A stretch of 59,340 bases of DNA, from IMG/VR virus record IMGVR_UViG_3300021961_000104, positions 1 to 59,340 of that record. One strand, 5' to 3'. Source of the DNA: a virus (taxonomy: Duplodnaviria > Caudoviricetes). Numbering within the stretch: position 1 is the first letter of the stretch; each line of letters opens with the position of its first letter. The notes under the pieces were generated by a model. The model worked only from the letters and a program-made list of their open reading frames with translations. It did no database searches and was not told where the DNA came from. Of the stretch, positions 1 through 29,980 are shown one piece after another. A program made the position numbers and the translations under genes.

Positions 1-160
1 ATTACATATTACTGGGTATGGTGTTGTCCCCTCCCCTCTACACGTTTTTTCTCTAGGAAAAATCATTTCACAAAACGGGCCCCACCCTTCTTTTCTAGAC
101 AATTTTCTATACCTCAACGAGACCCCCTCCCCCACCCCATAGATTTATGACTTTGTCTAG

Positions 161-283
161 ACTATACTATACTCTACTATACTCTACTACTCTATACTAT
201 ACTAAACAATACTACACAGTACTATACGATACTATACTATACTCTACTATACTATACTATACTACAAATACTCTACGATACTA
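161..283. repeat. Degenerate 5-bp tandem repeat array (ACTAT/ACTCT) at the left end
   Basis: actatactat actctactat actctactac ... with 5-nt periodicity over about 120 bp; non-coding, G-poor strand. Confidence 0.9.
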
Positions 284-294
284 TTTGGATAATA
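264..294 (+). promoter_or_regulatory. Early promoter-like motif copy 1 (ACAAA-N5-TACGA-N8-GGATAATA)
   Basis: ACAAA TACTC TACGA TACTATTT GGATAATA; same spacing as five other copies. Confidence 0.65.
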
Positions 295-464
295 CTAATG
301 TTACTAATCTAAACTAATACTAATGTTCTTACATGCTATCTTTCTAGTATTTATTCAAGTCACTATACTAATCTATACTCAGAAATAATATCATACCCAG
401 ATATGATAAATTCAAGTATCATCAATACTAATGATATTTTAACTCCAATACTAATACTAAAAAC

Positions 465-512
465 TGTGACAATAGCCTATTACTCTATATTACTTAATAC
501 CCTTATGTCACA
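465..512. promoter_or_regulatory. Palindrome-flanked site A (TGTGACA-N34-TGTCACA), putative operator/origin
   Basis: Terminal 7-bp inverted repeat; interior matches the reverse complement of 8725-8770. Confidence 0.65.
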
Positions 513-539
513 CTTTTCTAAAACTAATTAAAAACTAAC

Positions 540-570
540 ACAAACAAAATACGTTATCGTCCGGATAATA
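540..570 (+). promoter_or_regulatory. Early promoter-like motif copy 2
   Basis: ACAAA CAAAA TACGT TATCGTCC GGATAATA, upstream of ORF 631. Confidence 0.75.
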
Positions 571-630
571 TAATAAACCAATAAGCAAATATAAAATATA
601 AAATAAATAAATTAAATTAAAATTAAAATT

Positions 631-855
631 ATGCAAATTAAATCAAATCGCTTCGTCATTCGCAAATCATTAATTGGCCAAAATGCCATTATCAATGTCA
701 CTTTCAAAAATAATAAAACTTTTGAATATAATCATGATATCGCTTATGAACTCATGTCTTCAAAATTAAATGAAATGCCTTGCTTTTTAAAATATAAAAG
801 CTATACTTCATCAACTTCAATACCAAAAATATTGCAAAACGCTCAAGTTTTATAA
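631..855 (+). CDS. Hypothetical early protein
   Basis: 74-aa ORF after promoter motif with A-rich leader. Confidence 0.75.
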   Translation: MQIKSNRFVIRKSLIGQNAIINVTFKNNKTFEYNHDIAYELMSSKLNEMPCFLKYKSYTSSTSIPKILQNAQVL

Positions 856-886
856 TATTTTAATATTGCTTTTGAAAAATTGCTAT

Positions 887-924
887 AGACTATATTTTTC
901 TTTGTAGAAAGAGATATATAGTCT
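887..924. terminator. Intergenic hairpin, possible terminator or processing site
   Basis: AGACTATAT...ATATAGTCT inverted repeat downstream of ORF 631. Confidence 0.4.
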
Positions 925-1075
925 TAAACCACCAACTACTTTTTATCAATAAAACAATTATACACTTACAAACTTAAAAAATTATGAGAAAATTCTATCA
1001 CTTTGTATTAATAAAATTCGAGCAATTCCAAGAATTTATGGGAAAAGCACCTAGTGAAACGACTTGGTTTTAATT

Positions 1076-1106
1076 ACAAACTAAAAACGATGCACTTTGG
1101 ATAATA
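1076..1106 (+). promoter_or_regulatory. Early promoter-like motif copy 3
   Basis: ACAAA CTAAA AACGA TGCACTTT GGATAATA. Confidence 0.7.
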
Positions 1107-1443
1107 TAATAAATGCAAAATTATACCTATGATTAATAAAATATTCGAACTTCAAACTTCATTTCAAATAATTTATTCGCACAAATATAAATTATATGAC
1201 TTCACTATTATTGACTTGGAAAGTAAAAAAGTTTTACACCATTATCATTATCCAAATTTAAAAATTATAAATAAATTAATTCAAGAATATAAATAAACAT
1301 TATGAAAAAAGTAACAATTACACTACGATCTTCACAATCCGTTAAAGAAATAAACAAAATAATGGAAGAAATGCTATGGGATAGTGAATTCAGCTATGAG
1401 TTTGAAGACGCGCTTTGGGTGATATCGAAAGATTAATTCAATC

Positions 1444-1474
1444 ACAAACCAAATACGATTATCTTTGGATAATA
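1444..1474 (+). promoter_or_regulatory. Early promoter-like motif copy 4
   Basis: ACAAA CCAAA TACGA TTATCTTT GGATAATA. Confidence 0.75.
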
Positions 1475-1716
1475 TAATAAACAATTAACCAAATATTATA
1501 AAATGGAATTATTATTTAACCCTTCTGACATTATTTCACATGAAAAATTAAAAACTTGGAGTAAAAAAGCTTTAACAGAATATATATTATATTGCACCTA
1601 TATTAAATTTCCTGAAGATAGTTATGAAGAAGATGAACTTCCAATGAATAAATTAATTGCTAAAATATAATTAAAACTTTCCATGCCTGGGATTAGAAAT
1701 ACGGGTGATGCCAAAT

Positions 1717-1757
1717 AGAAGTAATGGTTAATGCGAGTTCGATTCTCGCGACTTCAA
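1717..1757 (+). ncRNA. tRNA minihelix-like element (partial acceptor stem + T arm)
   Basis: GCGAG-TTCGATT-CTCGC T arm; GAAGT pairs with ACTTC; ends ACTAA like the two tmRNA-like RNAs. Confidence 0.5.
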
Positions 1758-1785
1758 CTAAATTAATAAATTAAAAAATAAAATT

Positions 1786-1905
1786 ATGGCAAATATGAGT
1801 ACAGACATCATGAAAATCTCGTTAAAATTATTCAATAAATTTTGGCATGAGTTAAATTCACAACAAAAAGATACAGTTTTAGAAGCGTATTACGATTGGT
1901 GTTAA
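1786..1905 (+). CDS. Small hypothetical protein (39 aa, MANMSTD...)
   Basis: Read manually; first 15 nt identical to start of ORF 2852. Confidence 0.55.
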   Translation: MANMSTDIMKISLKLFNKFWHELNSQQKDTVLEAYYDWC

Positions 1906-1909
1906 TATT

Positions 1910-2125
1910 ATGAAAATATATCAAGTAACAAATTTGTTTTTTCCAAACAAAAAAACATATCGCTGTGATATTGACGGTGATTCTATAGTTGGTGATTATG
2001 CATCAGTATCTGAATGGCGTAATGATAGACTTGAGAATAGTGATTATTACAAAGAATTAAAAGAATTAAACACTAAAGCTACTATTGAATTTTTGTCAAA
2101 AGACAAGGGTAACAAAGGTGATTAA
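1910..2125 (+). CDS. Hypothetical protein
   Basis: ORF track, tightly packed operon. Confidence 0.7.
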   Translation: MKIYQVTNLFFPNKKTYRCDIDGDSIVGDYASVSEWRNDRLENSDYYKELKELNTKATIEFLSKDKGNKGD

Positions 2126-2142
2126 TAAATAATGTAAAAATT

Positions 2143-2460
2143 ATGAAAATAAAAGTGAAAAATCAATTAAATTCTTTTGTTAATATTGATGAAGATGTAA
2201 ACGTTATTTGCAAAGGATGTTTTGGAGGCGATCAAATTAACCAACATACGAAATTTGGTGGTGGTCAATTTAATATGGGCGCAGAATTTAACGGTGGTCA
2301 ATTTAACCAAAAAACAAAATTCCTCGGAAGTCAATATAATTGTGATGCAACATTTAACGGAAGAATGTATTTTACTAACAACACAGTTTGGAAAGAAGGG
2401 ATTTGGAAGCAGAATGATGATGGCACTTTTACCGAATGCAAAATAATACCTAAAAACTAA
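2143..2460 (+). CDS. Protein with 11-aa FxGxQxN tandem repeats (beta-solenoid-like)
   Basis: FGGDQINQHTK/FGGGQFNMGAE/FNGGQFNQKTK/FLGSQYNCDAT. Confidence 0.7.
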   Translation: MKIKVKNQLNSFVNIDEDVNVICKGCFGGDQINQHTKFGGGQFNMGAEFNGGQFNQKTKFLGSQYNCDATFNGRMYFTNNTVWKEGIWKQNDDGTFTECKIIPKN

Positions 2461-2610
2461 AACAATGAAAATAACAGTAAAACACTACGGCGAAAAAGTA
2501 ACAGTCTCAACAAAACGAAATGATCTTTCTCTTGATGAATTTATGGATTGTGTAAAGACTATTGCTACAGCAATATATAACGAACAATTAGTAGAAAATT
2601 ATTGGAAATA

Positions 2611-2823
2611 ATGAAAACACCGATGCAAGAGTTGATTGAGCAACTCAATAGGGTAAAGCCCACAGAATTTTGTTCTATTGAAACAATTAAAGGATGGGCA
2701 GAACAAATGCTTGAGAAAGAGAAAAAGGTGGTGTGTGAGTTTGCATACAATTGCAGGAATATAATGGCAGCAGATGAATTTGCTATTAAACATTGGTACG
2801 ACAAAACTTTTAACACTAAATAG
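2611..2823 (+). CDS. Hypothetical protein (start moved to ATG, MKTPMQELIE)
   Basis: ORF track 2602 start is TTG; in-frame ATG at 2611. Confidence 0.7.
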   Translation: MKTPMQELIEQLNRVKPTEFCSIETIKGWAEQMLEKEKKVVCEFAYNCRNIMAADEFAIKHWYDKTFNTK

Positions 2824-2851
2824 AAATAAAAAACATTTAAAACAAAATACT

Positions 2852-3049
2852 ATGGCAAATATGAGTTATTGCAGAATGCGAAATACTGCAAATGATTTAC
2901 AAGATTGTATAAATGCAATTGAAGAAGGAGAATATACTGATGGAATAAGTAGAGAAGAAAGACGAGGTTTAAACGAAATACTTGAATTAGCTCAACACTT
3001 AATTGATAATCTTCAAGACGAAATTGGAGAAATGTCAATAGCATATTAA
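2852..3049 (+). CDS. Hypothetical acidic protein (MANMSYCR...)
   Basis: In-frame ATG at 2852 after A-rich leader, no overlap with upstream gene. Confidence 0.75.
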   Translation: MANMSYCRMRNTANDLQDCINAIEEGEYTDGISREERRGLNEILELAQHLIDNLQDEIGEMSIAY

Positions 3050-3051
3050 AA

Positions 3052-3501
3052 ATGAAGAAGATAATTTATATAGACATGGACGGCGTTTTAGTCGATTTAG
3101 ATTCAGAAATAAAAAAAACTGAAACTAAAATAAACGGCAAAATGAAGTTTTGTGGTGTTGGTTTTACTAATTTATTCAAAAATCCACAGCCAATAAGTGG
3201 TGCGATTGAAGCTTTTGAAATACTTAGAAAATCACCTAAATACGATGTCTATATATTATCTTCAGCTCCATGGCAAAATCCTGCTACTTGGACATACAAA
3301 AGACTATGGGTAGAAAAATATTTAGGCAAATCTGCTTTCAAAAGACTAATATTATCACATCACAAAAATTTATGTGCCGGTGATTACTTAATTGATGACA
3401 GATTAGCGAACGGTTCTGATAAATTCAATGGTGAATTAATACAATTTGGAACAAAAAACTTTGAGAATTGGAGTGTAATATTGAAATATCTTCAACCTTA
3501 A
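3052..3501 (+). CDS. HAD-family 5'(3')-deoxyribonucleotidase (NT5C-like)
   Basis: IYIDMDGVL motif I, LSS motif II, K..W, LIDD motif IV. Confidence 0.9.
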   Translation: MKKIIYIDMDGVLVDLDSEIKKTETKINGKMKFCGVGFTNLFKNPQPISGAIEAFEILRKSPKYDVYILSSAPWQNPATWTYKRLWVEKYLGKSAFKRLILSHHKNLCAGDYLIDDRLANGSDKFNGELIQFGTKNFENWSVILKYLQP

Positions 3502-3502
3502 T

Positions 3503-3533
3503 ACAAATAAAATACGATTATCTATGGATAATA
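3503..3533 (+). promoter_or_regulatory. Early promoter-like motif copy 5
   Basis: ACAAATAAAATACGATTATCTATGGATAATA, identical to copy 6. Confidence 0.8.
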
Positions 3534-3555
3534 TATTTATAAACAAACAATAACT

Positions 3556-3738
3556 ATGCAAATGAAAAAAATTAAATTTTTAACCGGAAAACGTATATCT
3601 CTTGACGGAGTTATATATAAGCCTTATTTATTAAGCGAATTACCAAATAGCTTCGGCGTGATTTGGGATGAGAATCGAGAAGATTTTGGAATTTCACAAT
3701 GGTTTAATTACAAAGGATTGACTTATGTCCGTAGTTAA
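3556..3738 (+). CDS. Hypothetical protein
   Basis: ORF directly after promoter motif. Confidence 0.7.
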   Translation: MQMKKIKFLTGKRISLDGVIYKPYLLSELPNSFGVIWDENREDFGISQWFNYKGLTYVRS

Positions 3739-3976
3739 TATGAAAGAATTATGCCTCTATGTAGAACAGGCGAGAAAAAATCGTGCAGCGGAGCATAGAC
3801 GCAAGCACTCACATGAAAAACTGTGCGGTGGACTTACAGACTCTGAATATAACAAGATGGTAATCAGACAGAAATCTAGCTTTCCCAAAGCTAAAAAGTT
3901 CACCCATAGTAAAATGTGGCAAGATACACACAAGAAATTTGATGTAAAACAGTTAAATATTATAAAAAAATCATGA
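3725..3976 (+). CDS. Hypothetical basic protein
   Basis: ORF track, short overlap with upstream gene. Confidence 0.7.
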   Translation: MSVVNMKELCLYVEQARKNRAAEHRRKHSHEKLCGGLTDSEYNKMVIRQKSSFPKAKKFTHSKMWQDTHKKFDVKQLNIIKKS

Positions 3977-4102
3977 AAAAAGATATTTTAAATTACATAG
4001 ATTGGAATAATATTTGTAAGGATTATGATTTAGAAAGTGGTGATTTATCTTTAGATCATACTTTAACGTTAGAATATATATTAGAATATTTTATAAAAGC
4101 AA

Positions 4103-4133
4103 ACAAATAAAATACGATTATCTATGGATAATA
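4103..4133 (+). promoter_or_regulatory. Early promoter-like motif copy 6
   Basis: 31-bp exact repeat of 3503-3533. Confidence 0.8.
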
Positions 4134-4739: not shown

Positions 4740-4816
4740 GGGGGTGATTGGTTTTGACATAGCGTAAAGCCTACAAGGAAACGTTATGGAAGAGGGTTCG
4801 AATCCCTCCACCTCCA
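4740..4816 (+). ncRNA. Mini tmRNA-like RNA: tRNA-like domain only, Ala identity
   Basis: GGGGGTG/CACCTCC acceptor with G3:U70, A discriminator, stemless D loop ATTGGTTTTGAC, 8-bp P2-like helix, T arm GAGGG-TTCGAAT-CCCTC. Confidence 0.8.
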
Positions 4817-4842
4817 CTAAAACAAATAAATTATACATTATT

Positions 4843-6649: not shown

Positions 6650-6730
6650 GGGTGTGACATCGGTTGATTGTACTAGGAACTCGGAGAGGAGATACGGTAC
6701 AGGGTATAGGTTCGAATCCTATCACATCCA
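6650..6730 (+). ncRNA. Second tmRNA-TLD-like/atypical tRNA-like RNA with Ala identity
   Basis: GGGTGTG/CACATCC acceptor with G3:U70, A discriminator, no D stem, TGTACT/GGTACA helix, T arm ATAGG-TTCGAAT-CCTAT. Confidence 0.75.
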
Positions 6731-6751
6731 CTAATTATAAAACAAAAATTA

Positions 6752-9476: not shown

Positions 9477-10232
9477 ATGAAGAAATATAACGTACAAAAT
9501 TACATTAGATACAAAGAAGATGTTAAAAAATCTATGCCTAATGACAGAAAATATAATGAGTACAATAGAGACGAACTTATTATAAAGTTTTTACCACTTG
9601 TAGAAAATTTAGCCAGAAAATTCTCTACATCTCAACAAGCTTCAGGTGTTTTAACTATAAATGATTTAATTCAAATTGGATCTGAATCTTTGATAAAAGC
9701 GGTTGATAGAATTGAATGGGAAACATTAAACAAATCAGAAGACATCGAAAAAACTTTAAAATCATTTTTGTCGAAAAGAATAAAAGGCGGTATTAGAAGA
9801 CAAATAGATATGGCTAGAGGTAACATGAGAATACCAGAGCATAAACTAAATGAAATACGTAGTAACCCTAAAGACAAACAAATGGTTGAAATGTTTTTTA
9901 ATAGTATATTCTTAAGTATAGATGCTCAAACTTCTAACGACGACGAGGAAAATATGATATATCAAATTGCAGATAAATCTGAACCATATAACATACAATT
10001 TCTTAACATTTATTTAAAAAGTTTAATGGAAAAACATTTAAACAAAAATGAATATGAAGTGCTTAGACTTTCTTACGGTCTTGACTGTGATCCGCATTCT
10101 GCAATTCAAATAGCAGAAAAATTAGGTATCAATGGTACAAGTTCTTACGTTAGAGTATCTGAGCTTAAAAAACAGGCTGTAACCAAATTAATAGAAAGCG
10201 TAGATCACTCACAAGTGCTTGATTTTCTTTAA
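9477..10232 (+). CDS. RNA polymerase sigma70-family factor
   Basis: Region 2 LPLVENLARKF...DLIQIG...LIKAVDR, MRIP, region 4 VLRLSYGL...IAEKLG. Confidence 0.9.
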   Translation: MKKYNVQNYIRYKEDVKKSMPNDRKYNEYNRDELIIKFLPLVENLARKFSTSQQASGVLTINDLIQIGSESLIKAVDRIEWETLNKSEDIEKTLKSFLSKRIKGGIRRQIDMARGNMRIPEHKLNEIRSNPKDKQMVEMFFNSIFLSIDAQTSNDDEENMIYQIADKSEPYNIQFLNIYLKSLMEKHLNKNEYEVLRLSYGLDCDPHSAIQIAEKLGINGTSSYVRVSELKKQAVTKLIESVDHSQVLDFL

Positions 10233-21229: not shown

Positions 21230-24200
21230 TTATTGTTTTTTACTCATTAATTCTAATATCTTATTAACTCTATCTTCTTCATATTTTAAAGCTCTAATTT
21301 CTTTTTTACTTAAACCAAAGTTAGTTAATGTTTTTACTTGATCTGGTTTGTTCTCGGCTTTAATTGAATCAAATTGTTTTTGTAATCTTTGTTCAGCTGT
21401 TAGTTTCTTAGGTTTAACCTCTTCTTTTGGTTTAACTTCTTTTTTAGTAGATTCTACTTCTTCTTTAGTTTCAATTTTTTCTATAGGTTTATTTTTTAAC
21501 TCTATAATTTTATTGACTCTATTTTCTTCGTATTTTAATTCTTTAATTTCAGCTTTAGTTAAACCTAATTCTTCCAACATTTGCTTTTGTTCAGCAGTGT
21601 TAGTTTGGTCCATCATTAATTTAACAGCTTCAGCAGCTTCTTCTTCTGGTGTTAAAGGCTCAACAGCATCAAAACCACCGTAATAAGGTAAACCAACGTC
21701 GTAAGTTGACCAACCTAAAATTAAAGCTATTTTTTGCCATCTTACAGAAAGTTCGCTAAATATACCTCTCATGTTGTTTGTTTTCTTAACAACTCTGTCT
21801 ACTGGCACGTTAGTTAAACCTGTAAATACTTGAGCTACTGCTAAGTAAGCTGGATTATCTAAACTCCAACCTTTTTCTTTCATTTCTTTTTTATTCCAAC
21901 TAAAAGATCTTAAACCTCCATATATTTTACCTACTTTAGATCCTAATGGCGGAGAAAAAGCAAACAAATCCTCAACAGCTTCTTCGTATTCAGGTCTTTT
22001 TTTATCATTTTCTTCCATTAAAGTTAACAAAAAGTTTTTTAAGGAAGATACAGCAGCCCCAGTTATACCAAGTCCTCTAAGTTGAGAATCAAGCATACCA
22101 TTTGCAACTTTAACAGCTTTTTCTTTACGAGTATTTTTTAGCTCTTCTTTGCTATCATCATCGTCATCATCTCCAAAACCAATAGCATCTATAGCTGATT
22201 GAAGTGTATTGAATAATAAGTTTTGAACAATACCATAGTATATTATTTTAGAAACATTAGCTTTAGCATTGCCTCTACCGTTAACAAGATCTTGTATAGC
22301 TCTTTTTTGAATACGAGCATACTGCATTGGTGTATTTGCCCATGCTAATATAACTCTACCAGCTGTTGACGCTTGTTGTTTACTAATTCTAACCGGATTG
22401 CTAGACTGTTGACTTTCTTCTGCTATTGCTCTAAAATCTTCAAAAGCACGTTGTTCAGCTAGTTTAGGATCCATACCTGATTTAACTAAACTTTTTATTC
22501 TATTTCTATAAAATGTAGAACCTCCACTAGCTATAGCAAAACTATCTGCAATTTGAGTCATAACAAATCCTTTGTTAAGGATATAAGAAATAATAGCAGT
22601 CGCTTTATTTTTAGAGTTAGCAGCAGCATCAGCAATTTCAGATTCACTTATGTTTATCTTTAAACCATTTCTACGTTCAACAAGATAATCAGAATTCATT
22701 AATGTAATAAAATCTTTCCAAAATTGTTTTTGATTAGCAAATGCTAAACCTGCTTTAAATATATTATTATCACTCCAGTTTATAAAGTTTACAGATGATA
22801 TAGTTTGTAACAAGGCACTTCTAGTATTCAAAAACATAACAGCACCAACGGAATTGTTAAGCCAATCTAATATACCTTGTGTAGTACTATCACCTCCTTT
22901 GGGTCTATTACTACCAGACTTCATTCTACGGATAGAATCCTCTATAGCTGCTCGCCAATTAGTACCATAAGCAGCTTCCATTTTATTTAAATTTTCTTCT
23001 GAAAATATAATATCAACATTTTCTCTAAACTCTTGTTGGTACTCGGCTCTTTTAACTGTATTTATATCATTAATAATATCAGAACTTATAGTACCGGCTA
23101 ACCAACTATCAGATGGTGAAGGATATGGTTTGTCTTTTTGTATAGTAAAAAGTTGCTCTGCAAATACTTTTAATTTAGGATCACTTTCAACAAATGAAGT
23201 TAAATCTTGAATATCTTTTTTACTTAAACCAGGAATTTCGACACCTTGACTTTGCCATATAAACACTCTTATAGCATGAGAATAATTAAACTTACCTATA
23301 CCAGTTTGTTTGTTAAGTGTTTTTGGTAATGTTTTAAGCTGTGTTTTTAAAGCAATAAAATCGTTCATTGCAGCTATCTTAGCTTGAGTTACAGATATTT
23401 CAGATCTATTGTATGTATCTAAAAGATTTTGTTTTAGGAACGCCATTTGTGCATCACCTTTTTTACCTTTACCTATCATTTCATACAATAAACCAGTAAA
23501 ATCTTCTGCGCCAGCGGGTATAAAGAAATTGTATTTACCTTTTCCAGCGCCAACAGTTCTAGCTTTAGCTGCTGAGTATTTTTTATAAGTTTCAATACCA
23601 GCTGTATCAAAAATCATATCATTAATAACTCTATCAAAATCTTGTCTTTTACTAGCTTTAGCTTGTTGAACTTTAGACTTAACGTCAATTTGACTCAATA
23701 CTTCTTCAACAGCTTTTACATTTCCAGTAACATCATCAGCAAAGTAAAAATCATTATAACCTTCAGAAGCTTTGTCCATAATCCATCTAGCCTTAGCTTC
23801 AGCAGCGCCATCACCAAGTCCAGTTATATTTTTAATAGGTATATTTAAACCTAAACTTTTAAGGAATTGTTGAATTGGTTTAGCGGCGTCAGCTGGTCTT
23901 GCTGTTAAAACAAAAATATCTTTAGTACCTCTTTTGTCAGCTATAATTTTAGCGACTTTAAACAATGGTCCTTCTTTGCCATCTATAACTTTGCTAAATT
24001 CAGAAAAATTCCATTCAGCTCCTTGTGCTTCTAAATCAGTGGCTTGTTCAGCGAAAGTTCCAGCCTCTAGTTTACCTTGAATATTGCTATTAATACCAGC
24101 ATAAACTTTATCTAAAAAATCTTGTGGTAAATCCTCTCCAAAGCCTATTTCTTCTGTATTTATTTCATACAACTTATCGCCAAAATCTTTTCTATAAAGC

Positions 24201-27200
24201 TCGGTACTTTCTTGCACTTGGTTCCAACTTCTTTCGACTATAAAATCTGGTAAAGATCTTTCTACTCTAGCTTTGTTTCTAGCCAATGCCGTTTCTAAAG
24301 ACGTATTAGCAACTACCATATGGACTTCATAACCTGCATCCTGCAACTGCTTAACTTTTTTCATTGTAGCAGGGTAAGAAGCTCCAGTGCCGTCAATCAC
24401 CATACCATCGCCATTAGCAGCGTATTTATCAAATTTAGCAACAGCAGCTTTTCTAGCAGCGGCACCCAATTTAGCTCTAGTAGATATTTGCTCTGTAGTA
24501 TATTCAGCTTCTTTAGCTGGCAGTCCAGCTTCAGCTTTCATAACTTCTAAAGCTATATCTTGATTAACAACTTTATAACCTTGTCTACCTAACTTAAGCC
24601 CTTTTCCAATGTTTGTTTTTCCAGCACCAGGTCCACCAACCATAAATATAGCTTTCTGTCTAACTGATTCAGGAGAAAAACCACCTTCAAAATTAGGCAT
24701 AGTATATATAACTCTACTATTAGTACGAGCTAATGTATCGTCAAAATCAAATACTCTAATTTTCTTAACTGGCGCGTTTAATTTTCTAGCATTATTTAAA
24801 GCTTTATCAGCTTTGCTTAAAGCATCGATACTAGTTTTAACTGTTACAGCTTTATCGTACTTTATAGAGTCAGGGATTAAATCACTATTACGTTTAGAAG
24901 CCATTGCTTTACCTTTAACTAAAGGTAGATAAGCTTTAATTGTTTGACTAGGATTATAATTTAGATCACTAATAGCCTTAATTATTTGTTCGTTTTGATA
25001 AGAAATAGCCTCTAACTTTTGACTTTCGTTATAAGAATTATAAACATCTAGTGGAATACCAGCGTTTACAGTTTCAGCCATAGTTTTGCCAGTGTAAGGA
25101 TTTGTAATAGTATTTAAATCTATACCAGCAGCAGCAAGTCTAACTATTGGATTGTCAAATATAGTGAAACCTTCTGGAAGAGTAGAATCTAACTTAGCCA
25201 TATCTAATAAAAAGTCATCCTTTTTAGATAATTGAGTTTGATAATAGTTATCTCTAATAGCTTGCATTATTGGTTGGGCTTTGTTATTTTTTATTGCCCA
25301 CATAATATAAGCTCCAACTACAGAAGCTGGTGGATTATGTTCTTCTCTATATTTTTCTCCTTTTCTTTGCTCTGGTTTACTACCTTTTCCAGCATATTCC
25401 ATTGTGTTGGATCTGTATAAAAAAGGAGCGGCTATTTTTATTAAACCAGAAGTGGCTTGATAGCTTTGTACAATTATAGTTCCAGCTACATCTAAAGACA
25501 TTCCATTAGCAACAGCGTCAGCAAGTTGATTAACAACATGATCTAACACATCCATGTTTACTTTAGACTGAACCTTTGCTTTATCTGTAAAAGCATTTTT
25601 GATATTTATTTTTATAGGTTTTTTACCTTTATATTCTTTAGTTGATTCTATTAATTTTATATAAACAGGATCTTTTTCACCATAATATAATCTTCCTGGT
25701 TTTGCAACCCAATTAGTTATTTCGCTACCAAGGCTACCTTCAGCAGATTTCTCTAAAAAATATCTACCATCTGTAGTTTTAACATATTTTTCAACACCAA
25801 TAGTGCCTTTTTTTCCTTTTACAAATTTACCATCAACTATTTTACCGTAAAAACTTTGTCTTCCACCACTACCCATCATTCCAGCTCTCAATGTAGCTGT
25901 ATCAAGTCCATATTTTTCGACAGCTTCTTGTATTTGATCTTGAATAGTTTTTCTATTTTGTTCATTTATAGAAGGTGAATTATAACGCAACGACTTAGCT
26001 AAATCGGTTTTAGATCTTAGTATGCTTAAACCTTTTAGTTCTTCTAAATTTTCAGGCGTTATTCTTTTACTAGCCATTGATTTAGATTTTCCAGCAGCTA
26101 TATCTTGTTTAACCTCTAAATTTAAATCAGTTTCAGATCTTACTATTTCATTAGTTACTAATCTACCATATAGATTTGCAATACCTTTTAACGCTTGAGC
26201 CTCAGATGATCTAGCGCTAAAGTCTTCAGCTTTTTTACCTTCAACTATACCAAACGTTTTTAGAAAATCAGCTTTTGTAATTCCTTTATTTAAAGCAAAC
26301 GGAGATAAACCAGCTCCTTTAGTAATTCTAGGTTTTTTAGTATAAAAAGCATTTAACAAACCCTTTGGCACTCCAGTAGAGGTACCTAAGAGCTTATCTG
26401 TTGCAGCTTCTATCACTGCGCCTTCAGGTAATATCTTTAATAATTTATCTGCGTTCTTATTGACAAATCTTTGTATAGCATTAGCATCACCTTTAGATAG
26501 GTTAGCAGTTGGATCTGTTAGTTTTTTAACTGGTATTCCAATTTCTTGAGCTATAATTTCAGGAGCTAGATCGCCTAACTTCTTAAACGTCATTTGTTCA
26601 GGATCTATACCTTTTATTTTAGAAGCAATATTTTCTTTTATTTTAGCAACAGCATCGTTAGATATTAAAGAGCTAGGTTTTATTAAAGTTGTAACTGGTT
26701 TTGTAGATACTTCAACATCTTGCTCTGTAGCTGTTTGGCGTTGCATTTTTTCAGTAACACCTTCTTGTGACTCAGATTGAATGATCTCATTATATCTAGG
26801 GTCAGCTTCATAAAACTCTTGCAACCTAGCGTCAAATAAGCTTCTGCCAGAAGCAGACTTTGAGTTTAAGTAACCCATGACACTATCGTTTCGATCTGGT
26901 GTCCATTTATCTATTAAGCTAACTAATCCTCTTTTTTCATCTAAAGCAAAAGTTCTAGCTATATCATCAATAACGTCTTCGCTTAGGTTTATATTACGCA
27001 TACGTCTTTTAGCCTCATCAACTAAAGAATACGCAGCCATAATAGTAGCATCTTTCTTTTTATTAGAATCAAGAAGATCTGGCTTCATGGCCTCAACTTC
27101 TTGATATACTCTTTTACTCTCTTTAGCAGCAGTATCAGTGACCTCGTCTTGCATCAAACTCTCAAAACTTTTAATAGCTTTAGCGCCTTTGGTTCTTTGA

Positions 27201-29980
27201 TCTATTTTAACCTCTCCTTCTACCAAAGCACCTTTAGCTCCTTCTTTAGCTACAGCTAATTGAACTTCAGACAAGCCTTTACCAGATTGAATTGTTTTGT
27301 TGTAATCTTTTAAGAAGTTAAAAATATCTTTACCTGTATCAAACGTTATGTTTAAAGGTTGTTTACCAGATCTAAATAAATTATTAAATAAATCTATTAA
27401 ACTTTCAAAAAACCCTTTTGTTTTTTCATTATAAACAATATCTCCATTAGACATGGCTTCGCTAACCAATGGTATAACTTCTTCCCACGTAGCAGCTGCA
27501 GAGTACTTAGGATCTTCTAAGTATTGTCTAAATCTATTTTCAAGATTACTATTTGTTATTGATATGTCTTTATTATTTACTATTTCAGAAAGTAAATTTT
27601 TTCCAAATATAATTGATAACTCTGGATTATCTTTAAAGGTTTGTTGGAAAAATGGATGTAATATTTCGTGTTGATCTGTTGTGAATTTAAAATCTTCTGC
27701 AGCGGCTCTATCGTTTATTAATATTATTTTTTTGTCATTTAATATAATTGATTGACCATATCCAGTTGATTCTTGAACTTCTCCGCCTTGATCTTTTATT
27801 TCTTGTACTCTTTTTTCGTAACCTTCTTGTGTATCAAAAGTTTCAAAATCAGATTCTAATTGTTCTGATATTATTTTAGCAGCTTCTCTGGCTTTTGATT
27901 GTTTTATTTTAATTAAATTTTCTTTTATTAAATTTTCATCTATGCTATTTTTAATAGCAAAAATATCATTAGACAACTTTTTATTCTTATTTACAACAGC
28001 TCCTTTTGCTGAACCATATTGTCTGCTATCAATTTCGCCATTTATATAAGCAACATTTAAATCTTTTAATATTTTATTATTTTTTTCTTTTTCAGAAACT
28101 AAATTTAAAACTTCTGCTTTTTGATTTGAATCTAAAAGTTTTGCTGAAATATAATTATTTTCTAAAAATTCTTTTAATGAATTTTCAGTTGTATTTATTT
28201 CTATATCAATAGCGTCTCTAAAAGCTTTATTTTTATTTAAAGCTCTAGCTTTTTGTAAGCCTCCAATAGTTTCAATGTGCTGATTGACAAATGCTAAAGA
28301 TTCTTTATCACTTCTCAAAGCTTTAGCTATTGTAGATGGCGCCGAAACTACCGTAGAACCAACAAGACCTTGTAAATAACTTTCAAGCCCATCTTCTGAA
28401 GCCATAGCTGATATGCCATCAAGTACGGAATTATTAAGGTTTTTACCGTCAGCTAAACTTTTATTTATTTCTTCAGTTCCTAATTGAAAAACCTCTGTTA
28501 AACCTTCTTTATTTTGAGTTAAAAGTAATGAAGCAAAAGGAGAATATTTACCTGTATACCCAGCAATTTGTTTTGAAATACCTTTAAGTCCAGCGTATTC
28601 AAGACTCATAGCCAAAACTCCTAATGTAAGTGGAGTGTTGATTTCTGTTTCATTATTTCTAACTAACTCTTCTATTGGGTTCTCTGAATCTTTATATTTA
28701 GAATTTGCTTTTGAAACATTGTAGTCTACATACATAGGAGCAACTATTTGAGGAAACAAAGAACCTCCTCTAGTTAAGGCAGCTGGTGCTGCTGTTTCAA
28801 TAAGACTTCCAACCGCATTAAATACTCCACCTATTATTTCAGGTATATCTCCTTTTTTAAAACCCGATACAATTCCACCAACGTCTGTTCTTGTTTCGCT
28901 TAATTTTTTTACTTTACCAAATTGCTCGATCATATAATCTTCAGCAAATTTACCAACTTCATTATCTGTACCTGAATATACTGCTTTTACGTTTGAACCA
29001 ATTTGTCTTTTTAGTCTACTTAATTCTTTCCAACGCTCAGGGTTTTTAGAAAATAATACCTCGCTGTTATCGTTTGGGTCAATAAAAGCTATAGCTGTTT
29101 CTGGCATTTTTCCGGTTAAAAAGTCGGCAGCATCTTGGCCGGCAGTATTTTTTATAAAATCTATTCCAGCAAGTTTAGCAGACTCCCAAGAAGTTTCTAG
29201 TCCTATAGGTATATTTTCAACAGTACCAATAAACCTTCCGGTAATATCCATAATTGGTTCCATTATTATATCAGCTATTGTTGGCTTTATTTCCGGTATA
29301 TCTTTTTTAGATAATTCAGAAATATAATCAGAAACCTTGTCTAATTCTTTATATGATACTATAGCTTTGTTTGTTTGTAAATTATCTCCTCCAAAAGCTT
29401 TTCTTATATTATTTATTTTTTGTAAATTTAAAAACTCATTTTCAGGTTTTAAAACTTCTTGTTGTGTTTTATTTAAAAAGTCATTAAAACTTTCCCCTTC
29501 TTTTTTTTCTTTTTGATATTTACCAAAAACATTATAAAGATCATTATCTATAGTTTCATCTGGAGCTAATTCCAATTGATAATAAGCTATAGTTCTTTCT
29601 GGAGTACCTGATTTATATTTTTTTAATATAGAATTTATTTGATCTTGTTTGTATTTTTTCTCTTCTTTTTCAAACTCCTTTATAGACTTTCCAAACAAGT
29701 CTTTATGCATTTTATCAAAATCACCTTCTTGATATTTCAAATCTCCATTTCCATATACTACATCTGAAAATGATGTCTCGGACGCATCCGGTTGTTTGGG
29801 TGATGCAGTTGCATCCGTTTTGTCTACAACACCCTTCGTCTTTGCTTCGTCGATAACGTCATCTACAACTTTATCTTCAACAGGTGGATTATTTTTTTTC
29901 CACTCTTGAGCTTTGTCAAATATTTCTTTATCAGATAATCCTTGATCTTGTAGAGAAGCTATATATTCTAATAATGTCAT
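21230..29980 (-). CDS. Giant (2916 aa) virion/ejection polyvalent protein: zincin peptidase, sigma-like module, HAD phosphatase with inserted P-loop kinase
   Basis: HEILH; GLVSLIDKWTPDR; DFDDT/LTAR/FADD; GGPGAGKT; lies after tail and internal-protein genes. Confidence 0.8.
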   Translation of the reverse strand: MTLLEYIASLQDQGLSDKEIFDKAQEWKKNNPPVEDKVVDDVIDEAKTKGVVDKTDATASPKQPDASETSFSDVVYGNGDLKYQEGDFDKMHKDLFGKSIKEFEKEEKKYKQDQINSILKKYKSGTPERTIAYYQLELAPDETIDNDLYNVFGKYQKEKKEGESFNDFLNKTQQEVLKPENEFLNLQKINNIRKAFGGDNLQTNKAIVSYKELDKVSDYISELSKKDIPEIKPTIADIIMEPIMDITGRFIGTVENIPIGLETSWESAKLAGIDFIKNTAGQDAADFLTGKMPETAIAFIDPNDNSEVLFSKNPERWKELSRLKRQIGSNVKAVYSGTDNEVGKFAEDYMIEQFGKVKKLSETRTDVGGIVSGFKKGDIPEIIGGVFNAVGSLIETAAPAALTRGGSLFPQIVAPMYVDYNVSKANSKYKDSENPIEELVRNNETEINTPLTLGVLAMSLEYAGLKGISKQIAGYTGKYSPFASLLLTQNKEGLTEVFQLGTEEINKSLADGKNLNNSVLDGISAMASEDGLESYLQGLVGSTVVSAPSTIAKALRSDKESLAFVNQHIETIGGLQKARALNKNKAFRDAIDIEINTTENSLKEFLENNYISAKLLDSNQKAEVLNLVSEKEKNNKILKDLNVAYINGEIDSRQYGSAKGAVVNKNKKLSNDIFAIKNSIDENLIKENLIKIKQSKAREAAKIISEQLESDFETFDTQEGYEKRVQEIKDQGGEVQESTGYGQSIILNDKKIILINDRAAAEDFKFTTDQHEILHPFFQQTFKDNPELSIIFGKNLLSEIVNNKDISITNSNLENRFRQYLEDPKYSAAATWEEVIPLVSEAMSNGDIVYNEKTKGFFESLIDLFNNLFRSGKQPLNITFDTGKDIFNFLKDYNKTIQSGKGLSEVQLAVAKEGAKGALVEGEVKIDQRTKGAKAIKSFESLMQDEVTDTAAKESKRVYQEVEAMKPDLLDSNKKKDATIMAAYSLVDEAKRRMRNINLSEDVIDDIARTFALDEKRGLVSLIDKWTPDRNDSVMGYLNSKSASGRSLFDARLQEFYEADPRYNEIIQSESQEGVTEKMQRQTATEQDVEVSTKPVTTLIKPSSLISNDAVAKIKENIASKIKGIDPEQMTFKKLGDLAPEIIAQEIGIPVKKLTDPTANLSKGDANAIQRFVNKNADKLLKILPEGAVIEAATDKLLGTSTGVPKGLLNAFYTKKPRITKGAGLSPFALNKGITKADFLKTFGIVEGKKAEDFSARSSEAQALKGIANLYGRLVTNEIVRSETDLNLEVKQDIAAGKSKSMASKRITPENLEELKGLSILRSKTDLAKSLRYNSPSINEQNRKTIQDQIQEAVEKYGLDTATLRAGMMGSGGRQSFYGKIVDGKFVKGKKGTIGVEKYVKTTDGRYFLEKSAEGSLGSEITNWVAKPGRLYYGEKDPVYIKLIESTKEYKGKKPIKINIKNAFTDKAKVQSKVNMDVLDHVVNQLADAVANGMSLDVAGTIIVQSYQATSGLIKIAAPFLYRSNTMEYAGKGSKPEQRKGEKYREEHNPPASVVGAYIMWAIKNNKAQPIMQAIRDNYYQTQLSKKDDFLLDMAKLDSTLPEGFTIFDNPIVRLAAAGIDLNTITNPYTGKTMAETVNAGIPLDVYNSYNESQKLEAISYQNEQIIKAISDLNYNPSQTIKAYLPLVKGKAMASKRNSDLIPDSIKYDKAVTVKTSIDALSKADKALNNARKLNAPVKKIRVFDFDDTLARTNSRVIYTMPNFEGGFSPESVRQKAIFMVGGPGAGKTNIGKGLKLGRQGYKVVNQDIALEVMKAEAGLPAKEAEYTTEQISTRAKLGAAARKAAVAKFDKYAANGDGMVIDGTGASYPATMKKVKQLQDAGYEVHMVVANTSLETALARNKARVERSLPDFIVERSWNQVQESTELYRKDFGDKLYEINTEEIGFGEDLPQDFLDKVYAGINSNIQGKLEAGTFAEQATDLEAQGAEWNFSEFSKVIDGKEGPLFKVAKIIADKRGTKDIFVLTARPADAAKPIQQFLKSLGLNIPIKNITGLGDGAAEAKARWIMDKASEGYNDFYFADDVTGNVKAVEEVLSQIDVKSKVQQAKASKRQDFDRVINDMIFDTAGIETYKKYSAAKARTVGAGKGKYNFFIPAGAEDFTGLLYEMIGKGKKGDAQMAFLKQNLLDTYNRSEISVTQAKIAAMNDFIALKTQLKTLPKTLNKQTGIGKFNYSHAIRVFIWQSQGVEIPGLSKKDIQDLTSFVESDPKLKVFAEQLFTIQKDKPYPSPSDSWLAGTISSDIINDINTVKRAEYQQEFRENVDIIFSEENLNKMEAAYGTNWRAAIEDSIRRMKSGSNRPKGGDSTTQGILDWLNNSVGAVMFLNTRSALLQTISSVNFINWSDNNIFKAGLAFANQKQFWKDFITLMNSDYLVERRNGLKINISESEIADAAANSKNKATAIISYILNKGFVMTQIADSFAIASGGSTFYRNRIKSLVKSGMDPKLAEQRAFEDFRAIAEESQQSSNPVRISKQQASTAGRVILAWANTPMQYARIQKRAIQDLVNGRGNAKANVSKIIYYGIVQNLLFNTLQSAIDAIGFGDDDDDDSKEELKNTRKEKAVKVANGMLDSQLRGLGITGAAVSSLKNFLLTLMEENDKKRPEYEEAVEDLFAFSPPLGSKVGKIYGGLRSFSWNKKEMKEKGWSLDNPAYLAVAQVFTGLTNVPVDRVVKKTNNMRGIFSELSVRWQKIALILGWSTYDVGLPYYGGFDAVEPLTPEEEAAEAVKLMMDQTNTAEQKQMLEELGLTKAEIKELKYEENRVNKIIELKNKPIEKIETKEEVESTKKEVKPKEEVKPKKLTAEQRLQKQFDSIKAENKPDQVKTLTNFGLSKKEIRALKYEEDRVNKILELMSKKQ

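What the first reader, a model, noticed from the sequence alone, without database searches (positions are those of the whole stretch)
26078..27109. Sigma70-like module inside the virion protein: candidate injected early sigma factor
Seen: GLVSLIDKWTPDRNDSVMGYLNS (26861-26929) and later PEIIAQEIGIPVKKL (about 26520-26563) in a 349-aa segment bounded by SKR linkers. Known: sigma70 region 2.2-2.3 consensus is GLxxAxxKFDPxRGxxFSTYA and region 3 has an EIAxxLGxxxxKV helix-turn-helix, in the same order. Inference: rather than packaging an RNA polymerase as N4 and crAss phages do, this phage may inject a sigma that redirects host core RNAP to the six early promoters, with the free-standing sigma (9477) acting later. 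Similarity is by eye only.
Basis: partly seen in the sequence, partly recalled or inferred. Interest (0 to 1): 0.88.

Follow-up and report, generated by a model that had tools for sequence, protein, structure and literature searches.

The report
Sigma-like module in giant phage protein
One cassette of a 2,916-residue late protein of an uncultured marine phage is a very divergent relative of bacterial sigma factors, so the phage may bring its own RNA-polymerase-steering factor into the cell, although delivery, cutting and polymerase binding are not shown.

Summary
Standard tools see no sigma there: Pfam, PHROGs, NCBIfam, PDB sequence search and Foldseek at E<=0.001 all gave nothing.

Deeper tests support the region-2 resemblance:
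- A 186-row profile of aa 940-1075 aligns to regions 2.1-2.3 of 31 diverse sigma factors (hhalign Prob 59%, P 9e-5, score 35.5). Reversed or shuffled controls reach at most 14.1.
- The only low-rmsd Foldseek hits of the AlphaFold N-domain are sigma region-2 structures, but none is significant (E 2.7-6.8).
- Co-folding with the beta' clamp helices gave weak support (0.39; best control 0.00).
- With a commoner family variant as master, the alignment runs collinearly through sigma2, linker and the sigma4 HTH of ECF sigmas (P 3e-4).

The last ~125 residues, the best conserved part, match nothing. The module sits in giant mosaic proteins of 2,000-3,000 aa (or fragments of them). It ends at a conserved AAGKxKxMASKR joint, after which relatives carry different modules.

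Best reading (about 0.45): a processed, injected, sigma-like RNA polymerase-binding factor. Packaging, cleavage and promoter choice are inferred.

The parts
21230..29980 (-). Giant 2,916-aa ORF (P0001). It is the last large gene of the late operon that runs TerL, portal, virion proteins, giant ORF.
   Evidence: Pfam and PHROGs recognise only a kinase at aa 1770-1942 and a weak phosphatase-like stretch.
27110..27121 (-). N-terminal joint ESKR (aa 954-957) just before the module.
   Evidence: Relatives carry K(E/A)SK(K/R) at the aligned place; 66 of 165 rows fit a strict pattern. In the N-domain model it lies in a helix of low to moderate pLDDT.
26774..27058 (-). Sigma2-like N-domain (aa ~975-1069).
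   Evidence: AlphaFold pLDDT is 90-97. Foldseek's only low-rmsd hits are sigma region-2 structures. hhalign results and controls are. Co-folding gave weak support.
26702..26773 (-). Acidic flexible linker (aa 1070-1093).
   Evidence: pLDDT is below 50 for model residues 113-136. This stretch is poorly conserved in the family.
26441..26659 (-). Helical stretch with the HTH-like peptide PEIIAQEIGIPVKKL (aa ~1108-1180). It is a candidate sigma4-like part.
   Evidence: With the family's major-type master it aligns collinearly to ECF region 4. With the window's own master the signal is weak.
26105..26440 (-). Highly conserved C-terminal extension (aa 1181-1292) with the motifs LPEGAV, GTSTGVP, KGAGL and RSxEAQxLKG. 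Its fold and function are unassigned.
   Evidence: Family conservation is. pLDDT is 82-98 and the stretch packs with the HTH part into one domain. No family, PDB or BFVD match was found apart from a homologous giant protein.
26063..26104 (-). C-terminal joint DIAAGKSKSMASKR (aa 1293-1306).
   Evidence: It is conserved in the displayed relatives while the sequence after it differs. ASK[RK] is enriched 276 against 44.7 expected.
27656..27670 (-). HEILH (HExxH) motif at aa 771-775, a candidate zinc metallopeptidase site upstream of the module.
   Evidence: HExxH is conserved in the consensus of alignment A2. Only faint family hits were found in relatives: SprT-like at E 0.07 and Peptidase_M78 at E 0.2.
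23654..24886 (-). Neighbouring cassette (aa 1699-2109): a P-loop kinase set inside a HAD-type phosphatase, with DFDDT at aa 1745.
   Evidence: AAA_33 at 4.5e-13, Zeta_toxin at 3.6e-9, and polynucleotide-kinase PHROGs 505 and 415.
9477..10232 (+). Free-standing phage sigma factor (251 aa).
   Evidence: phrog_351 at 5.6e-18 and TIGR02937 at 8.5e-14, over its cut-off. It is the only six-frame Sigma70_r2 match in the record.
272..4133 (+). Early-region promoter-like motif AATACGATTATCT(A/T)TGGATAATA. Copies lie at 272, 1084, 1452, 3511 and 4111, with a weaker one at 548.
   Evidence: The core TGGATAATA occurs 8 times in the window against 1.0 expected, and 5 of those lie in the first 4.2 kb. The link to the module is inference only.

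Best explanation
Residues ~975-1301 of the giant late protein are a very divergent sigma70-family module.

Anatomy:
- a sigma2-like domain (aa ~975-1069);
- an acidic flexible linker (aa 1070-1093);
- a helical part with an HTH that lines up with ECF sigma4 (aa ~1108-1180);
- a conserved ~125-residue extension with no known relative.

Proposed mechanism. The module is one cassette of a mosaic 'polyvalent' protein whose cassettes are joined by a conserved (A/S)M(A/F)SK(R/K) peptide. The giant protein is packed into the capsid and cut at the joints, possibly by its own HExxH domain. The module enters the cell with the DNA. There its sigma2-like domain binds the beta' clamp helices of host RNA polymerase and steers or captures the enzyme at the start of infection. 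The free-standing sigma (9477-10232) would act once phage genes are expressed.

How far each step goes:
- Shown by computation: the anatomy, the remote sigma2 homology, the conserved joints and the module swapping.
- Weakly supported: the sigma4 likeness and beta' binding.
- Inferred only: packaging, cleavage, injection, and which promoters are served.

Rough odds:
- true sigma2 homologue: 0.75;
- binds RNA polymerase: 0.55;
- delivered with the DNA: 0.65;
- acts as a promoter-specifying early sigma: 0.3.
For: 1. Family. 245 proteins of 1,603-5,103 aa match aa 940-1320 at E<=0.001. 275 cluster representatives match the 344-aa segment. The 150 listed are giant proteins or shorter pieces of them.

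2. Structure. With 36 rows the segment folds at mean pLDDT 89 into two domains joined by a disordered stretch. The N-domain alone folds at pLDDT 86.5.

3. Foldseek of the N-domain against the PDB gave 0 hits at E<=0.001. Among the 45 or so rows shown, the only ones with rmsd of 5.6 A or less are sigma region-2 chains; every other row has rmsd of 9.2 A or more:
- 6omf_F: prob 0.35, TMq 0.38, rmsd 4.4 A, 22% identity.
- 6kj6_F: TMq 0.36, rmsd 5.6 A.
- 5h6x_B: TMt 0.49, rmsd 3.1 A over 70 columns, 23% identity.
- 7vf9_F: TMq 0.30, rmsd 4.5 A.
- 2o7g_A: TMt 0.45, rmsd 4.2 A.

4. hhalign of the N-domain profile (186 rows) against 31 sigma ORFs gave Prob 59.3%, P 9.1e-5 and score 35.5. It aligned query 42-99 to regions 2.1-2.3. 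The sigma set was 30 ORFs from four bacterial genomes plus the window's own sigma. Controls:
- reversed alignments: 12.6 and 11.6;
- 150 column shuffles of the sigma alignment: maximum 14.1;
- 100 column shuffles of the query: maximum 13.3.

5. The same register appears with three sigma subsets: 15 group 1-3 sigmas (Prob 78%, P 1.8e-5), 15 ECF sigmas (P 0.016) and the window's own sigma family (P 0.025).

6. With a major-type family member as master (P0026 aa 787-1121, 259 rows), one local alignment of 158 columns spans sigma2 through sigma4 of ECF sigmas. Local P is 3e-4 (score 34.5) and global P is 9.4e-6 (score 30.6). Controls, local/global:
- reversed: 15.0 / 1.7;
- halves swapped: 22.1 / 16.9;
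- 50 shuffles, maximum: 14.8 / 6.7.

7. Co-folding. The N-domain was co-folded with a 126-residue beta' clamp-helix fragment from a Bacteroidetes MAG.
- Verdict: weak support. Score 0.39 (runs 0.44, 0.39, 0.30); best of 3 controls 0.00.
- The runs share at least 92% of contacts; partner pLDDT is at least 68.
- Calibration: the mark was reached by 58 of 80 solved complexes and 2 of 110 mismatched pairs. At 0.60 or under, only 7 of those 80 and both mismatches passed. My own alignment was used, so these counts hold only roughly.
- Sigma-beta' complexes are solved, so the pass may reflect likeness.

8. Joints and mosaicism.

9. Context. The ORF closes the TerL-portal-virion operon. In two related podophages a giant ORF lies in the same place downstream of the portal and structural genes. 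These are MW202828 (3,859 aa) and Flavobacterium phage elemoA (3,694 aa, annotated 'structural protein').

10. No RNA polymerase family was found in the record.
Against: 1. No curated model sees a sigma here:
- Pfam, PHROGs and NCBIfam gave 0 families for the segment.
- None of 36 and none of 3 family members scanned against Pfam at E<=1 and E<=10 hit a sigma family.
- The six-frame Sigma70_r2 search of the record at E<=10 found only the free-standing sigma.
- PDB sequence and profile searches found no sigma.

2. Foldseek found nothing at E<=0.001 in the PDB, for the whole segment or for the N-domain. The sigma hits have E 2.7-6.8 and TM below 0.5.

3. The hhalign result depends on the profile:
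- with only the 32 closest rows: P 0.017, Prob 2.6%;
- with the whole-segment profile: P 0.0047, Prob 7.5%;
- a first comparison with the window's own, shallow sigma family: Prob 0.06%.
No probability reaches the 90% usually asked for.

4. The window's copy is the less sigma-like variant. A loop replaces the region 2.3-2.4 helix. The positions aligned to sigma70 W433 and W434 hold S and K (numbering recalled).

5. The C-domain alone scores 19.9-20.5 against 16.5-16.7 for reversed sigma.

6. The best conserved part, aa 1181-1301, has no counterpart in sigma factors.

7. The giants of the cultured relatives contain no homologue of the module or of any other part of this protein. Evidence for packaging is therefore synteny alone. 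A first phmmer match to one of them lay over a poly-Asp run and was not reproduced with profiles.

8. One of the six early motifs contains TATCTTTG, which fits the Bacteroidetes host-type TAnnTTTG box (recalled). Host sigma alone might therefore serve them.
Confidence: 0.45

Rival explanations
1. The module binds RNA polymerase but is not a sigma. The sigma2-like domain occupies the beta' clamp helices and so displaces or blocks host sigma (host shut-off). Alternatively it tethers the entering DNA end or the ejection complex to RNA polymerase. In neither case does it choose promoters.
For: In the window's copy the residues aligned to the -10 melting and recognition positions are not kept, and a loop interrupts the region 2.3-2.4 helix. 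The sigma4 likeness is weak for the window's own sequence. The conserved extension of aa 1181-1301 is foreign to sigma factors. Co-folding gave weak support for clamp-helix binding: 0.39 against a best control of 0.00.
Against: The commoner family variant keeps a region 2.3-2.4-like stretch, seen by eye. It also aligns collinearly through sigma4 of ECF sigmas, which a pure decoy would not need. The early region carries a long conserved promoter-like motif that fits a dedicated specificity factor.
Confidence: 0.2
2. The segment is a structural or ejection-protein module with no role in transcription. The likeness to sigma region 2 would be an ancient or chance resemblance of small helical domains, and the HTH-like peptide a generic helix-turn-helix.
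For: No curated sigma model, PDB sequence search or Foldseek search reaches significance. The language-model atlas gave only sub-threshold leads: T7 Gp15 internal virion protein at 0.79 and crAss cargo at 0.77, and one cluster in which 19% of members carry Sigma70_r2, at 0.89. The best conserved half has no sigma counterpart.
Against: hhalign scores of 35-40 are far above every reversed or shuffled control, which reach at most 15. The co-fold with the clamp helices scored 0.39 while all three controls scored 0.00.
Confidence: 0.2
3. The giant protein is not packaged. It would be a late-expressed polyprotein processed in the producing cell, and the sigma-like module would act there, for example on late genes, rather than in the next host.
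For: Nothing here shows packaging. No homologue exists in a phage with a virion proteome. The gene is co-oriented with the late genes.
Against: Its position after the tail and virion genes, and the same-place giant ORFs annotated 'structural protein' in a cultured relative, match where podophages keep internal and ejection proteins (established knowledge of T7, P22 and N4, recalled). A free-standing sigma already exists for later genes.
Confidence: 0.1

Closest known systems
ECF (group 4) and other sigma70-family sigma factors
   Same: There is a region 2.1-2.3-like sequence pattern and a sigma2-like fold. A flexible linker follows and then an HTH-bearing helical part in the same order. Binding to the beta' clamp helices is predicted weakly.
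   Different: It is not free-standing but one cassette of a 2,916-aa protein. No curated sigma model matches. In the window's copy the region 2.3-2.4 helix is broken and the aligned melting residues are not kept. It carries an extra, highly conserved ~125-residue C-terminal part.
Phage-type polyvalent proteins (Iyer et al. 2017, PMC5512222; passages read)
   Same: It is a giant multidomain protein next to virion genes that combines unrelated effector-type modules. One is a kinase/phosphatase cassette and there is a candidate HExxH peptidase. Module content varies between relatives.
   Different: That paper does not contain the word 'sigma' (0 occurrences). The joints here carry a conserved peptide, (A/S)M(A/F)SK(R/K). 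The peptidase is not confirmed by any family model.
Virion-packaged RNA polymerases of N4-like and crAss-like phages
   Same: The logic is the same: a giant late-operon protein that could bring transcription capacity into the cell with the DNA. The N4 facts come from the abstracts of PMC4496689 and PMC13434306 in search listings. The crAss comparison is recalled.
   Different: No polymerase catalytic domain was detected. What would be delivered is a specificity or binding subunit for the host enzyme, not an enzyme.
Injected RNA polymerase modifiers such as T4 Alt (recalled, not checked here)
   Same: It would be a capsid-delivered protein that biases host RNA polymerase toward phage early genes.
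   Different: Alt is an ADP-ribosyltransferase. This module has no enzyme-like match and resembles a sigma.

Membership tests
sigma70 family | Match to curated region-2, region-4 or whole-sigma models (Pfam Sigma70_r2/r4, TIGR02937) | tested here: not met
   The segment matched 0 families. None of 36 and none of 3 relatives matched a sigma family. The six-frame Sigma70_r2 search of the record found only ORF 9477.
sigma70 family | Remote homology of the N-domain to region 2 (profile-profile comparison and fold) | tested here: met
   hhalign gave Prob 59-78% and P 1.8e-5 to 9.1e-5, with controls at 14.1 or less. Narrower profiles gave only P 0.017 and 0.0047. Foldseek's sigma region-2 chains are the only low-rmsd hits, but at E 2.7-6.8 and TM 0.30-0.49.
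sigma70 family | Region 2.3-2.4 residues that melt and read the -10 element | tested here: not met
   In the window's copy the positions aligned to sigma70 Y425, W433 and W434 hold D, S and K; only the Y430 position is kept (alignment; residue roles and numbering recalled). A loop breaks the helix. The commoner variant looks closer, by eye only.
sigma70 family | Sigma4 domain with the region 4.2 HTH, collinear with sigma2 | tested here: inconclusive
   With the major-type master there is one 158-column alignment to ECF sigmas (P 3e-4). With the ECF halves swapped, the sigma4 half alone scores 22.1 (P 0.023), against 14.8 for the best shuffle. The window's C-domain scores 19.9-20.5 against 16.5-16.7 for reversed sigma.
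sigma70 family | Binding to core RNA polymerase through the beta' clamp helices | tested here: inconclusive
   The co-fold verdict was weak support: 0.39 against a best control of 0.00. The beta' fragment came from a stand-in host, and similar complexes are solved.
sigma70 family | Promoter-specific initiation with core enzyme | not testable with these tools
   This needs in vitro transcription from the motifs at 272-4133.
Phage polyvalent proteins (Iyer et al. 2017) | Many unrelated domains in one polypeptide, encoded beside virion genes, with a variable domain set among relatives | tested here: met
   Of the 256 related proteins and fragments, 187 carry the N-terminal part, 110 carry module 3, 133 carry the kinase cassette and 205 carry the C-terminal part.
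Phage polyvalent proteins (Iyer et al. 2017) | Zincin-like metallopeptidase domain for self-processing | tested here: inconclusive
   HEILH lies at aa 771-775 and HExxH is conserved in the A2 consensus. Only faint SprT-like (E 0.07) and Peptidase_M78 (E 0.2) hits were found in relatives.
Phage polyvalent proteins (Iyer et al. 2017) | Delivery into the host together with the DNA | not testable with these tools
   There is only synteny with giant ORFs annotated 'structural protein' in a cultured relative. No sequence homology to them was found.

The most novel reading that the evidence does not exclude
An abundant clade of marine podophages packs a complete, ECF-like sigma factor inside the capsid as one cassette of a self-cutting polyprotein. 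The phage injects it with the DNA, so host core RNA polymerase is reprogrammed to the phage's own early promoters before any phage gene is expressed. This would be a third way to start phage transcription, beside host holoenzyme and virion RNA polymerases.
Probability: 0.3. Interest if true: 0.9.

Novelty: new variant of a known kind. Interest (0 to 1): 0.72.

Why it matters
Phages are known to start early transcription in two ways. They use the host holoenzyme as it is, sometimes after an injected enzyme has modified it, or they inject their own RNA polymerase. An injected sigma-like subunit that captures host core enzyme would be a third strategy.

It would explain how a 59-kb phage with no detectable polymerase can use long, phage-specific early promoter-like motifs.

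The conserved joint peptide gives a testable cutting code for giant phage proteins. The module also shows that sigma domains can hide below the reach of standard annotation.

I found no description of a capsid-delivered or polyvalent-protein-embedded sigma in four literature searches. I also found none in the passages of PMC5512222 and PMC7824862 that I read. Supplementary files were not seen.

Tried and rejected
- Cultured relatives by BLAST. tblastn of the segment against 50,697 phage records found no match. The whole giant protein matched only through its kinase domain, in 9 records.
- Whole-segment fold searches. Foldseek against the PDB gave 0 hits at E<=0.001; sigma chains appear only among noise at E 1.7-3.6. 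Against BFVD the only significant hit is a homologous giant protein auto-named 'UDP-N-acetylglucosamine kinase'.
- First profile comparison. hhalign against the window's own sigma family gave Prob 0.06%. That alignment had Neff 1.27 and was too shallow to be a fair test.
- Language-model atlas. It gave only sub-threshold leads.
- Free-standing forms. Only 15 proteins of 189-602 aa match, and most cover 20-63% of the query, so they look like pieces of giant proteins.
- Homology to syntenic giants of cultured relatives. Module HMMs gave negative scores. Profiles of the four other parts gave no match at E<=1. I withdrew a phmmer match (P0001 aa 2499-2611 to MW202828, E 7e-7 in a two-sequence database). 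It spans the poly-Asp run at aa 2604-2609 and was not reproduced.
- A hidden multisubunit-type polymerase motif. The only D.D.D match is in the poly-Asp run.
- Host identification. Four MAG contigs carry the phage sigma, but they come from four unrelated taxa and are probably mis-binned phage pieces.
- Reading the early motif as a known promoter class by eye (extended -10, ECF-type, Bacteroidetes TAnnTTTG). No class fits all six copies.
- Technical. One alignment script timed out and one script had a parsing error. Both were re-run successfully.
Full report
**Observation**

The window is a 59,340-bp virus record, estimated 92% complete. An ORF on the minus strand, 21230-29980, encodes 2,916 residues.

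GLVSLIDKWTPDRNDSVMGYLNS is aa 1018-1040, and PEIIAQEIGIPVKKL is aa 1140-1154.

SKR occurs at aa 955, 1304, 1695 and 2110, once as KESKR and three times as ASKR. The segment 26078-27109 (aa 958-1301) lies between the first two.

**Context**

The ORF closes a late operon that runs from large terminase (45535-47745) and portal (43147-45534) through several proteins matching 'virion structural protein' PHROGs.

The portal's nearest deposited relatives are podophages of Flavobacterium, Cellulophaga, Maribacter and Tenacibaculum, at 42-50% identity. In two of them a giant ORF lies in the same place downstream of the portal and structural genes:
- MW202828: 3,859 aa.
- Flavobacterium phage elemoA: 3,694 aa, annotated 'structural protein'.

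Those giants share no detectable sequence with this one. That the protein is in the virion therefore rests on gene position alone.

The plus-strand half of the genome holds replication and nucleotide-metabolism genes and a genuine free-standing sigma at 9477-10232. No RNA polymerase family was detected. The T7-type search had no positive control, and very divergent polymerases would be missed.

**What standard tools say**

- Pfam, PHROGs and NCBIfam give nothing for the segment.
- PDB sequence and profile searches give no sigma.
- None of 36 and none of 3 relatives matches a sigma family in Pfam.
- A six-frame Sigma70_r2 search of the record finds only ORF 9477.
- In the whole giant protein only a P-loop kinase (aa 1770-1942) inside a HAD-type phosphatase is recognised.

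**The family**

- aa 940-1320 has 245 relatives among proteins of 1,603-5,103 aa.
- The 344-aa segment has 275 cluster representatives. The 150 listed are giant proteins or shorter pieces of them.
- Only 15 matches were found among proteins of 189-602 aa, and most of them cover 20-63% of the query.
- Conservation is highest in aa 1118-1301.
- In 175 of 184 relatives the N-domain lies 14-119 residues (median 35) before the C-domain.

**Structure**

With 36 aligned rows AlphaFold gives mean pLDDT 89. The model has:
- an all-helical N-domain (aa 958-1069);
- a disordered acidic stretch (aa 1070-1093);
- a compact C-domain (aa 1094-1301).

Foldseek of the whole model finds nothing at E<=0.001 in the PDB. 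In BFVD it finds only a homologous giant protein.

**Is the N-domain sigma-like?**

Fold evidence. The N-domain was folded alone (aa 940-1075, pLDDT 86.5) and searched against the PDB. Again nothing reached E<=0.001. However, among the rows shown, the only hits with low rmsd are sigma region-2 structures:
- sigma-S in 6omf, 6kj6 and 7vf9;
- the RpoS region 1.2-2 fragment 5h6x_B (TMt 0.49, 3.1 A over 70 columns, 23% identity);
- the SigC sigma2 domain 2o7g_A.

Every other listed hit has rmsd of 9.2 A or more.

Profile evidence. I built a reference alignment of 30 sigma ORFs from four unrelated bacterial genomes plus the window's own sigma. Results with three query profiles:

| Query profile | Result |
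|---|---|
| N-domain, 186 rows (iterative search restricted to the giant proteins) | Prob 59.3%, P 9.1e-5, score 35.5; regions 2.1-2.3 |
| Whole segment | P 0.0047, Prob 7.5% |

Controls for the 186-row profile:
- reversed alignments: 12.6 and 11.6;
- 150 column shuffles of the sigma alignment: maximum 14.1;
- 100 column shuffles of the query: maximum 13.3.

The register holds with three sigma subsets:
- group 1-3 sigmas alone: Prob 78%, P 1.8e-5;
- ECF sigmas alone: P 0.016;
- the window's own sigma family: P 0.025.

The deeper profile works better because most relatives carry a more sigma-like variant of the N-domain than the window does. The window's variant is homologous to it but diverged. 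A loop interrupts what would be the region 2.3-2.4 helix. The positions aligned to the sigma70 melting tryptophans hold S and K (residue roles recalled).

**Is the rest sigma-like?**

Window's own C-domain. Reversed sigma scores 16.5-16.7, so this is not evidence on its own.

Major-type master. One local alignment of 158 columns runs from region 2 through the linker to region 4 of ECF sigmas.

| Comparison | Local score | Global score |
|---|---|---|
| ECF sigmas | 34.5 (P 3e-4) | 30.6 (P 9.4e-6) |
| Reversed ECF | 15.0 | 1.7 |
| ECF halves swapped | 22.1 | 16.9 |
| 50 column shuffles, maximum | 14.8 | 6.7 |

A global alignment of the window's aa 975-1180 to ECF sigmas behaves the same way at lower scores: 18.0 against 5.3 reversed, 14.0 swapped and 6.4 for the best shuffle.

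So an ECF-like sigma2-linker-sigma4 layout is plausible but not established. The HTH is more likely region 4-like than region 3-like. The last ~125 residues (LPEGAV, GTSTGVP, KGAGL, RSxEAQxLKG) are the most conserved part and match nothing.

**Polymerase binding**

I co-folded the N-domain with a 126-residue beta' fragment that contains the clamp helices. The fragment comes from a Bacteroidetes MAG and is a stand-in host.
- Verdict: weak support. Score 0.39 (runs 0.44, 0.39, 0.30); all three controls 0.00.
- The runs share at least 92% of contacts; partner pLDDT is at least 68.
- Calibration: 58 of 80 solved complexes and 2 of 110 mismatched pairs reach the mark. At 0.60 or under, only 7 of those 80 and both mismatches passed. 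My own alignment was used, so these counts hold only roughly.
- Sigma-beta' complexes are solved, so the pass may reflect likeness rather than binding.

**Joints**

- In the displayed relatives the module ends with D(V/I)AAGKxKxMASKR. After it they continue with several unrelated sequences.
- ASK[RK] occurs 276 times in 210 giant proteins against 44.7 expected. 109 of the 210 have none, and some of those seen use MFSK-type variants.
- A K(E/A)SK(K/R) peptide precedes the module in many relatives.
- A conserved HExxH lies upstream at aa 771-775, with only faint peptidase hits in relatives.
- Of 256 related proteins and fragments, 187 share the N-terminal part, 205 the C-terminal part, 133 the kinase cassette and 110 module 3.

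This is the pattern of phage 'polyvalent proteins', for which self-processing by a metallopeptidase domain and delivery with the DNA have been proposed (PMC5512222, passages read). That paper does not mention sigma.

**Early promoters**

A 23-nt motif, AATACGATTATCT(A/T)TGGATAATA, with conserved flanks, occurs at 272, 1084, 1452, 3511 and 4111, with a weaker copy at 548. All are on the plus strand in the first 4.2 kb. I could not assign it to a promoter class. One copy contains a TAnnTTTG box of the Bacteroidetes type (recalled). The link to the module is inference.

**Verdict**

The best reading is a sigma-like, RNA polymerase-binding cassette of a processed and probably injected polyprotein. 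Whether it specifies promoters, blocks host sigma or does something else is open.

I found no such case in print in four searches. Notes from this scan report similar modules in other phage genomes. I did not check those notes, and they are not independent evidence.

Noticed in passing
window 147-277: A dense run of overlapping direct repeats with a 5-nt period (CTATA/CTCTA units, spacing 10 or 15 nt) lies at the left end of the record, just before the first early motif.
   Followed up: no
window 1736-1761, 4795-4820, 6709-6734: Three copies of a sequence that looks like a tRNA 3' end (GGTTCGAATCC...CCACTAA) were found, yet ARAGORN reports 0 tRNA genes in the window.
   Followed up: partly
window 23654-24886 (aa 1699-2109 of the giant ORF): This cassette has a P-loop kinase (AAA_33, Zeta_toxin-like, polynucleotide-kinase PHROGs) placed between the DxDxT motif (DFDDT, aa 1745) and the DD motif (aa 2082) of a HAD-type phosphatase. 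That layout suggests an RNA or DNA end-healing enzyme.
   Followed up: partly
window 21233-21650 (C-terminal ~140 aa of the giant ORF): The giant protein ends with two copies of a ~27-residue peptide, (L/F)GL(T/S)K.EI..LKYEE.RVNKI.EL, separated by a lysine- and glutamate-rich stretch. A run of six aspartates lies at aa 2604-2609.
   Followed up: no
window 9477-10232: The free-standing sigma is extremely common in public data. All 8,000 scored candidates matched at E<=0.001, and the 120 listed are 80-98% identical. It also turns up on short contigs binned into MAGs of four unrelated taxa, probably through mis-binning.
   Followed up: partly
window 27656-27670 (aa 771-775): An HExxH motif (HEILH) is conserved among relatives, with only faint SprT-like and Peptidase_M78 hits. 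It is a candidate self-processing peptidase for the giant protein.
   Followed up: partly
L041 (MW202828.1) and L043 (MT497017.1): Related podophages carry giant ORFs of 3,859 and 3,694 aa at the same place. Each has its own HExxH motifs (two and one) but no sequence similarity to this protein.
   Followed up: partly
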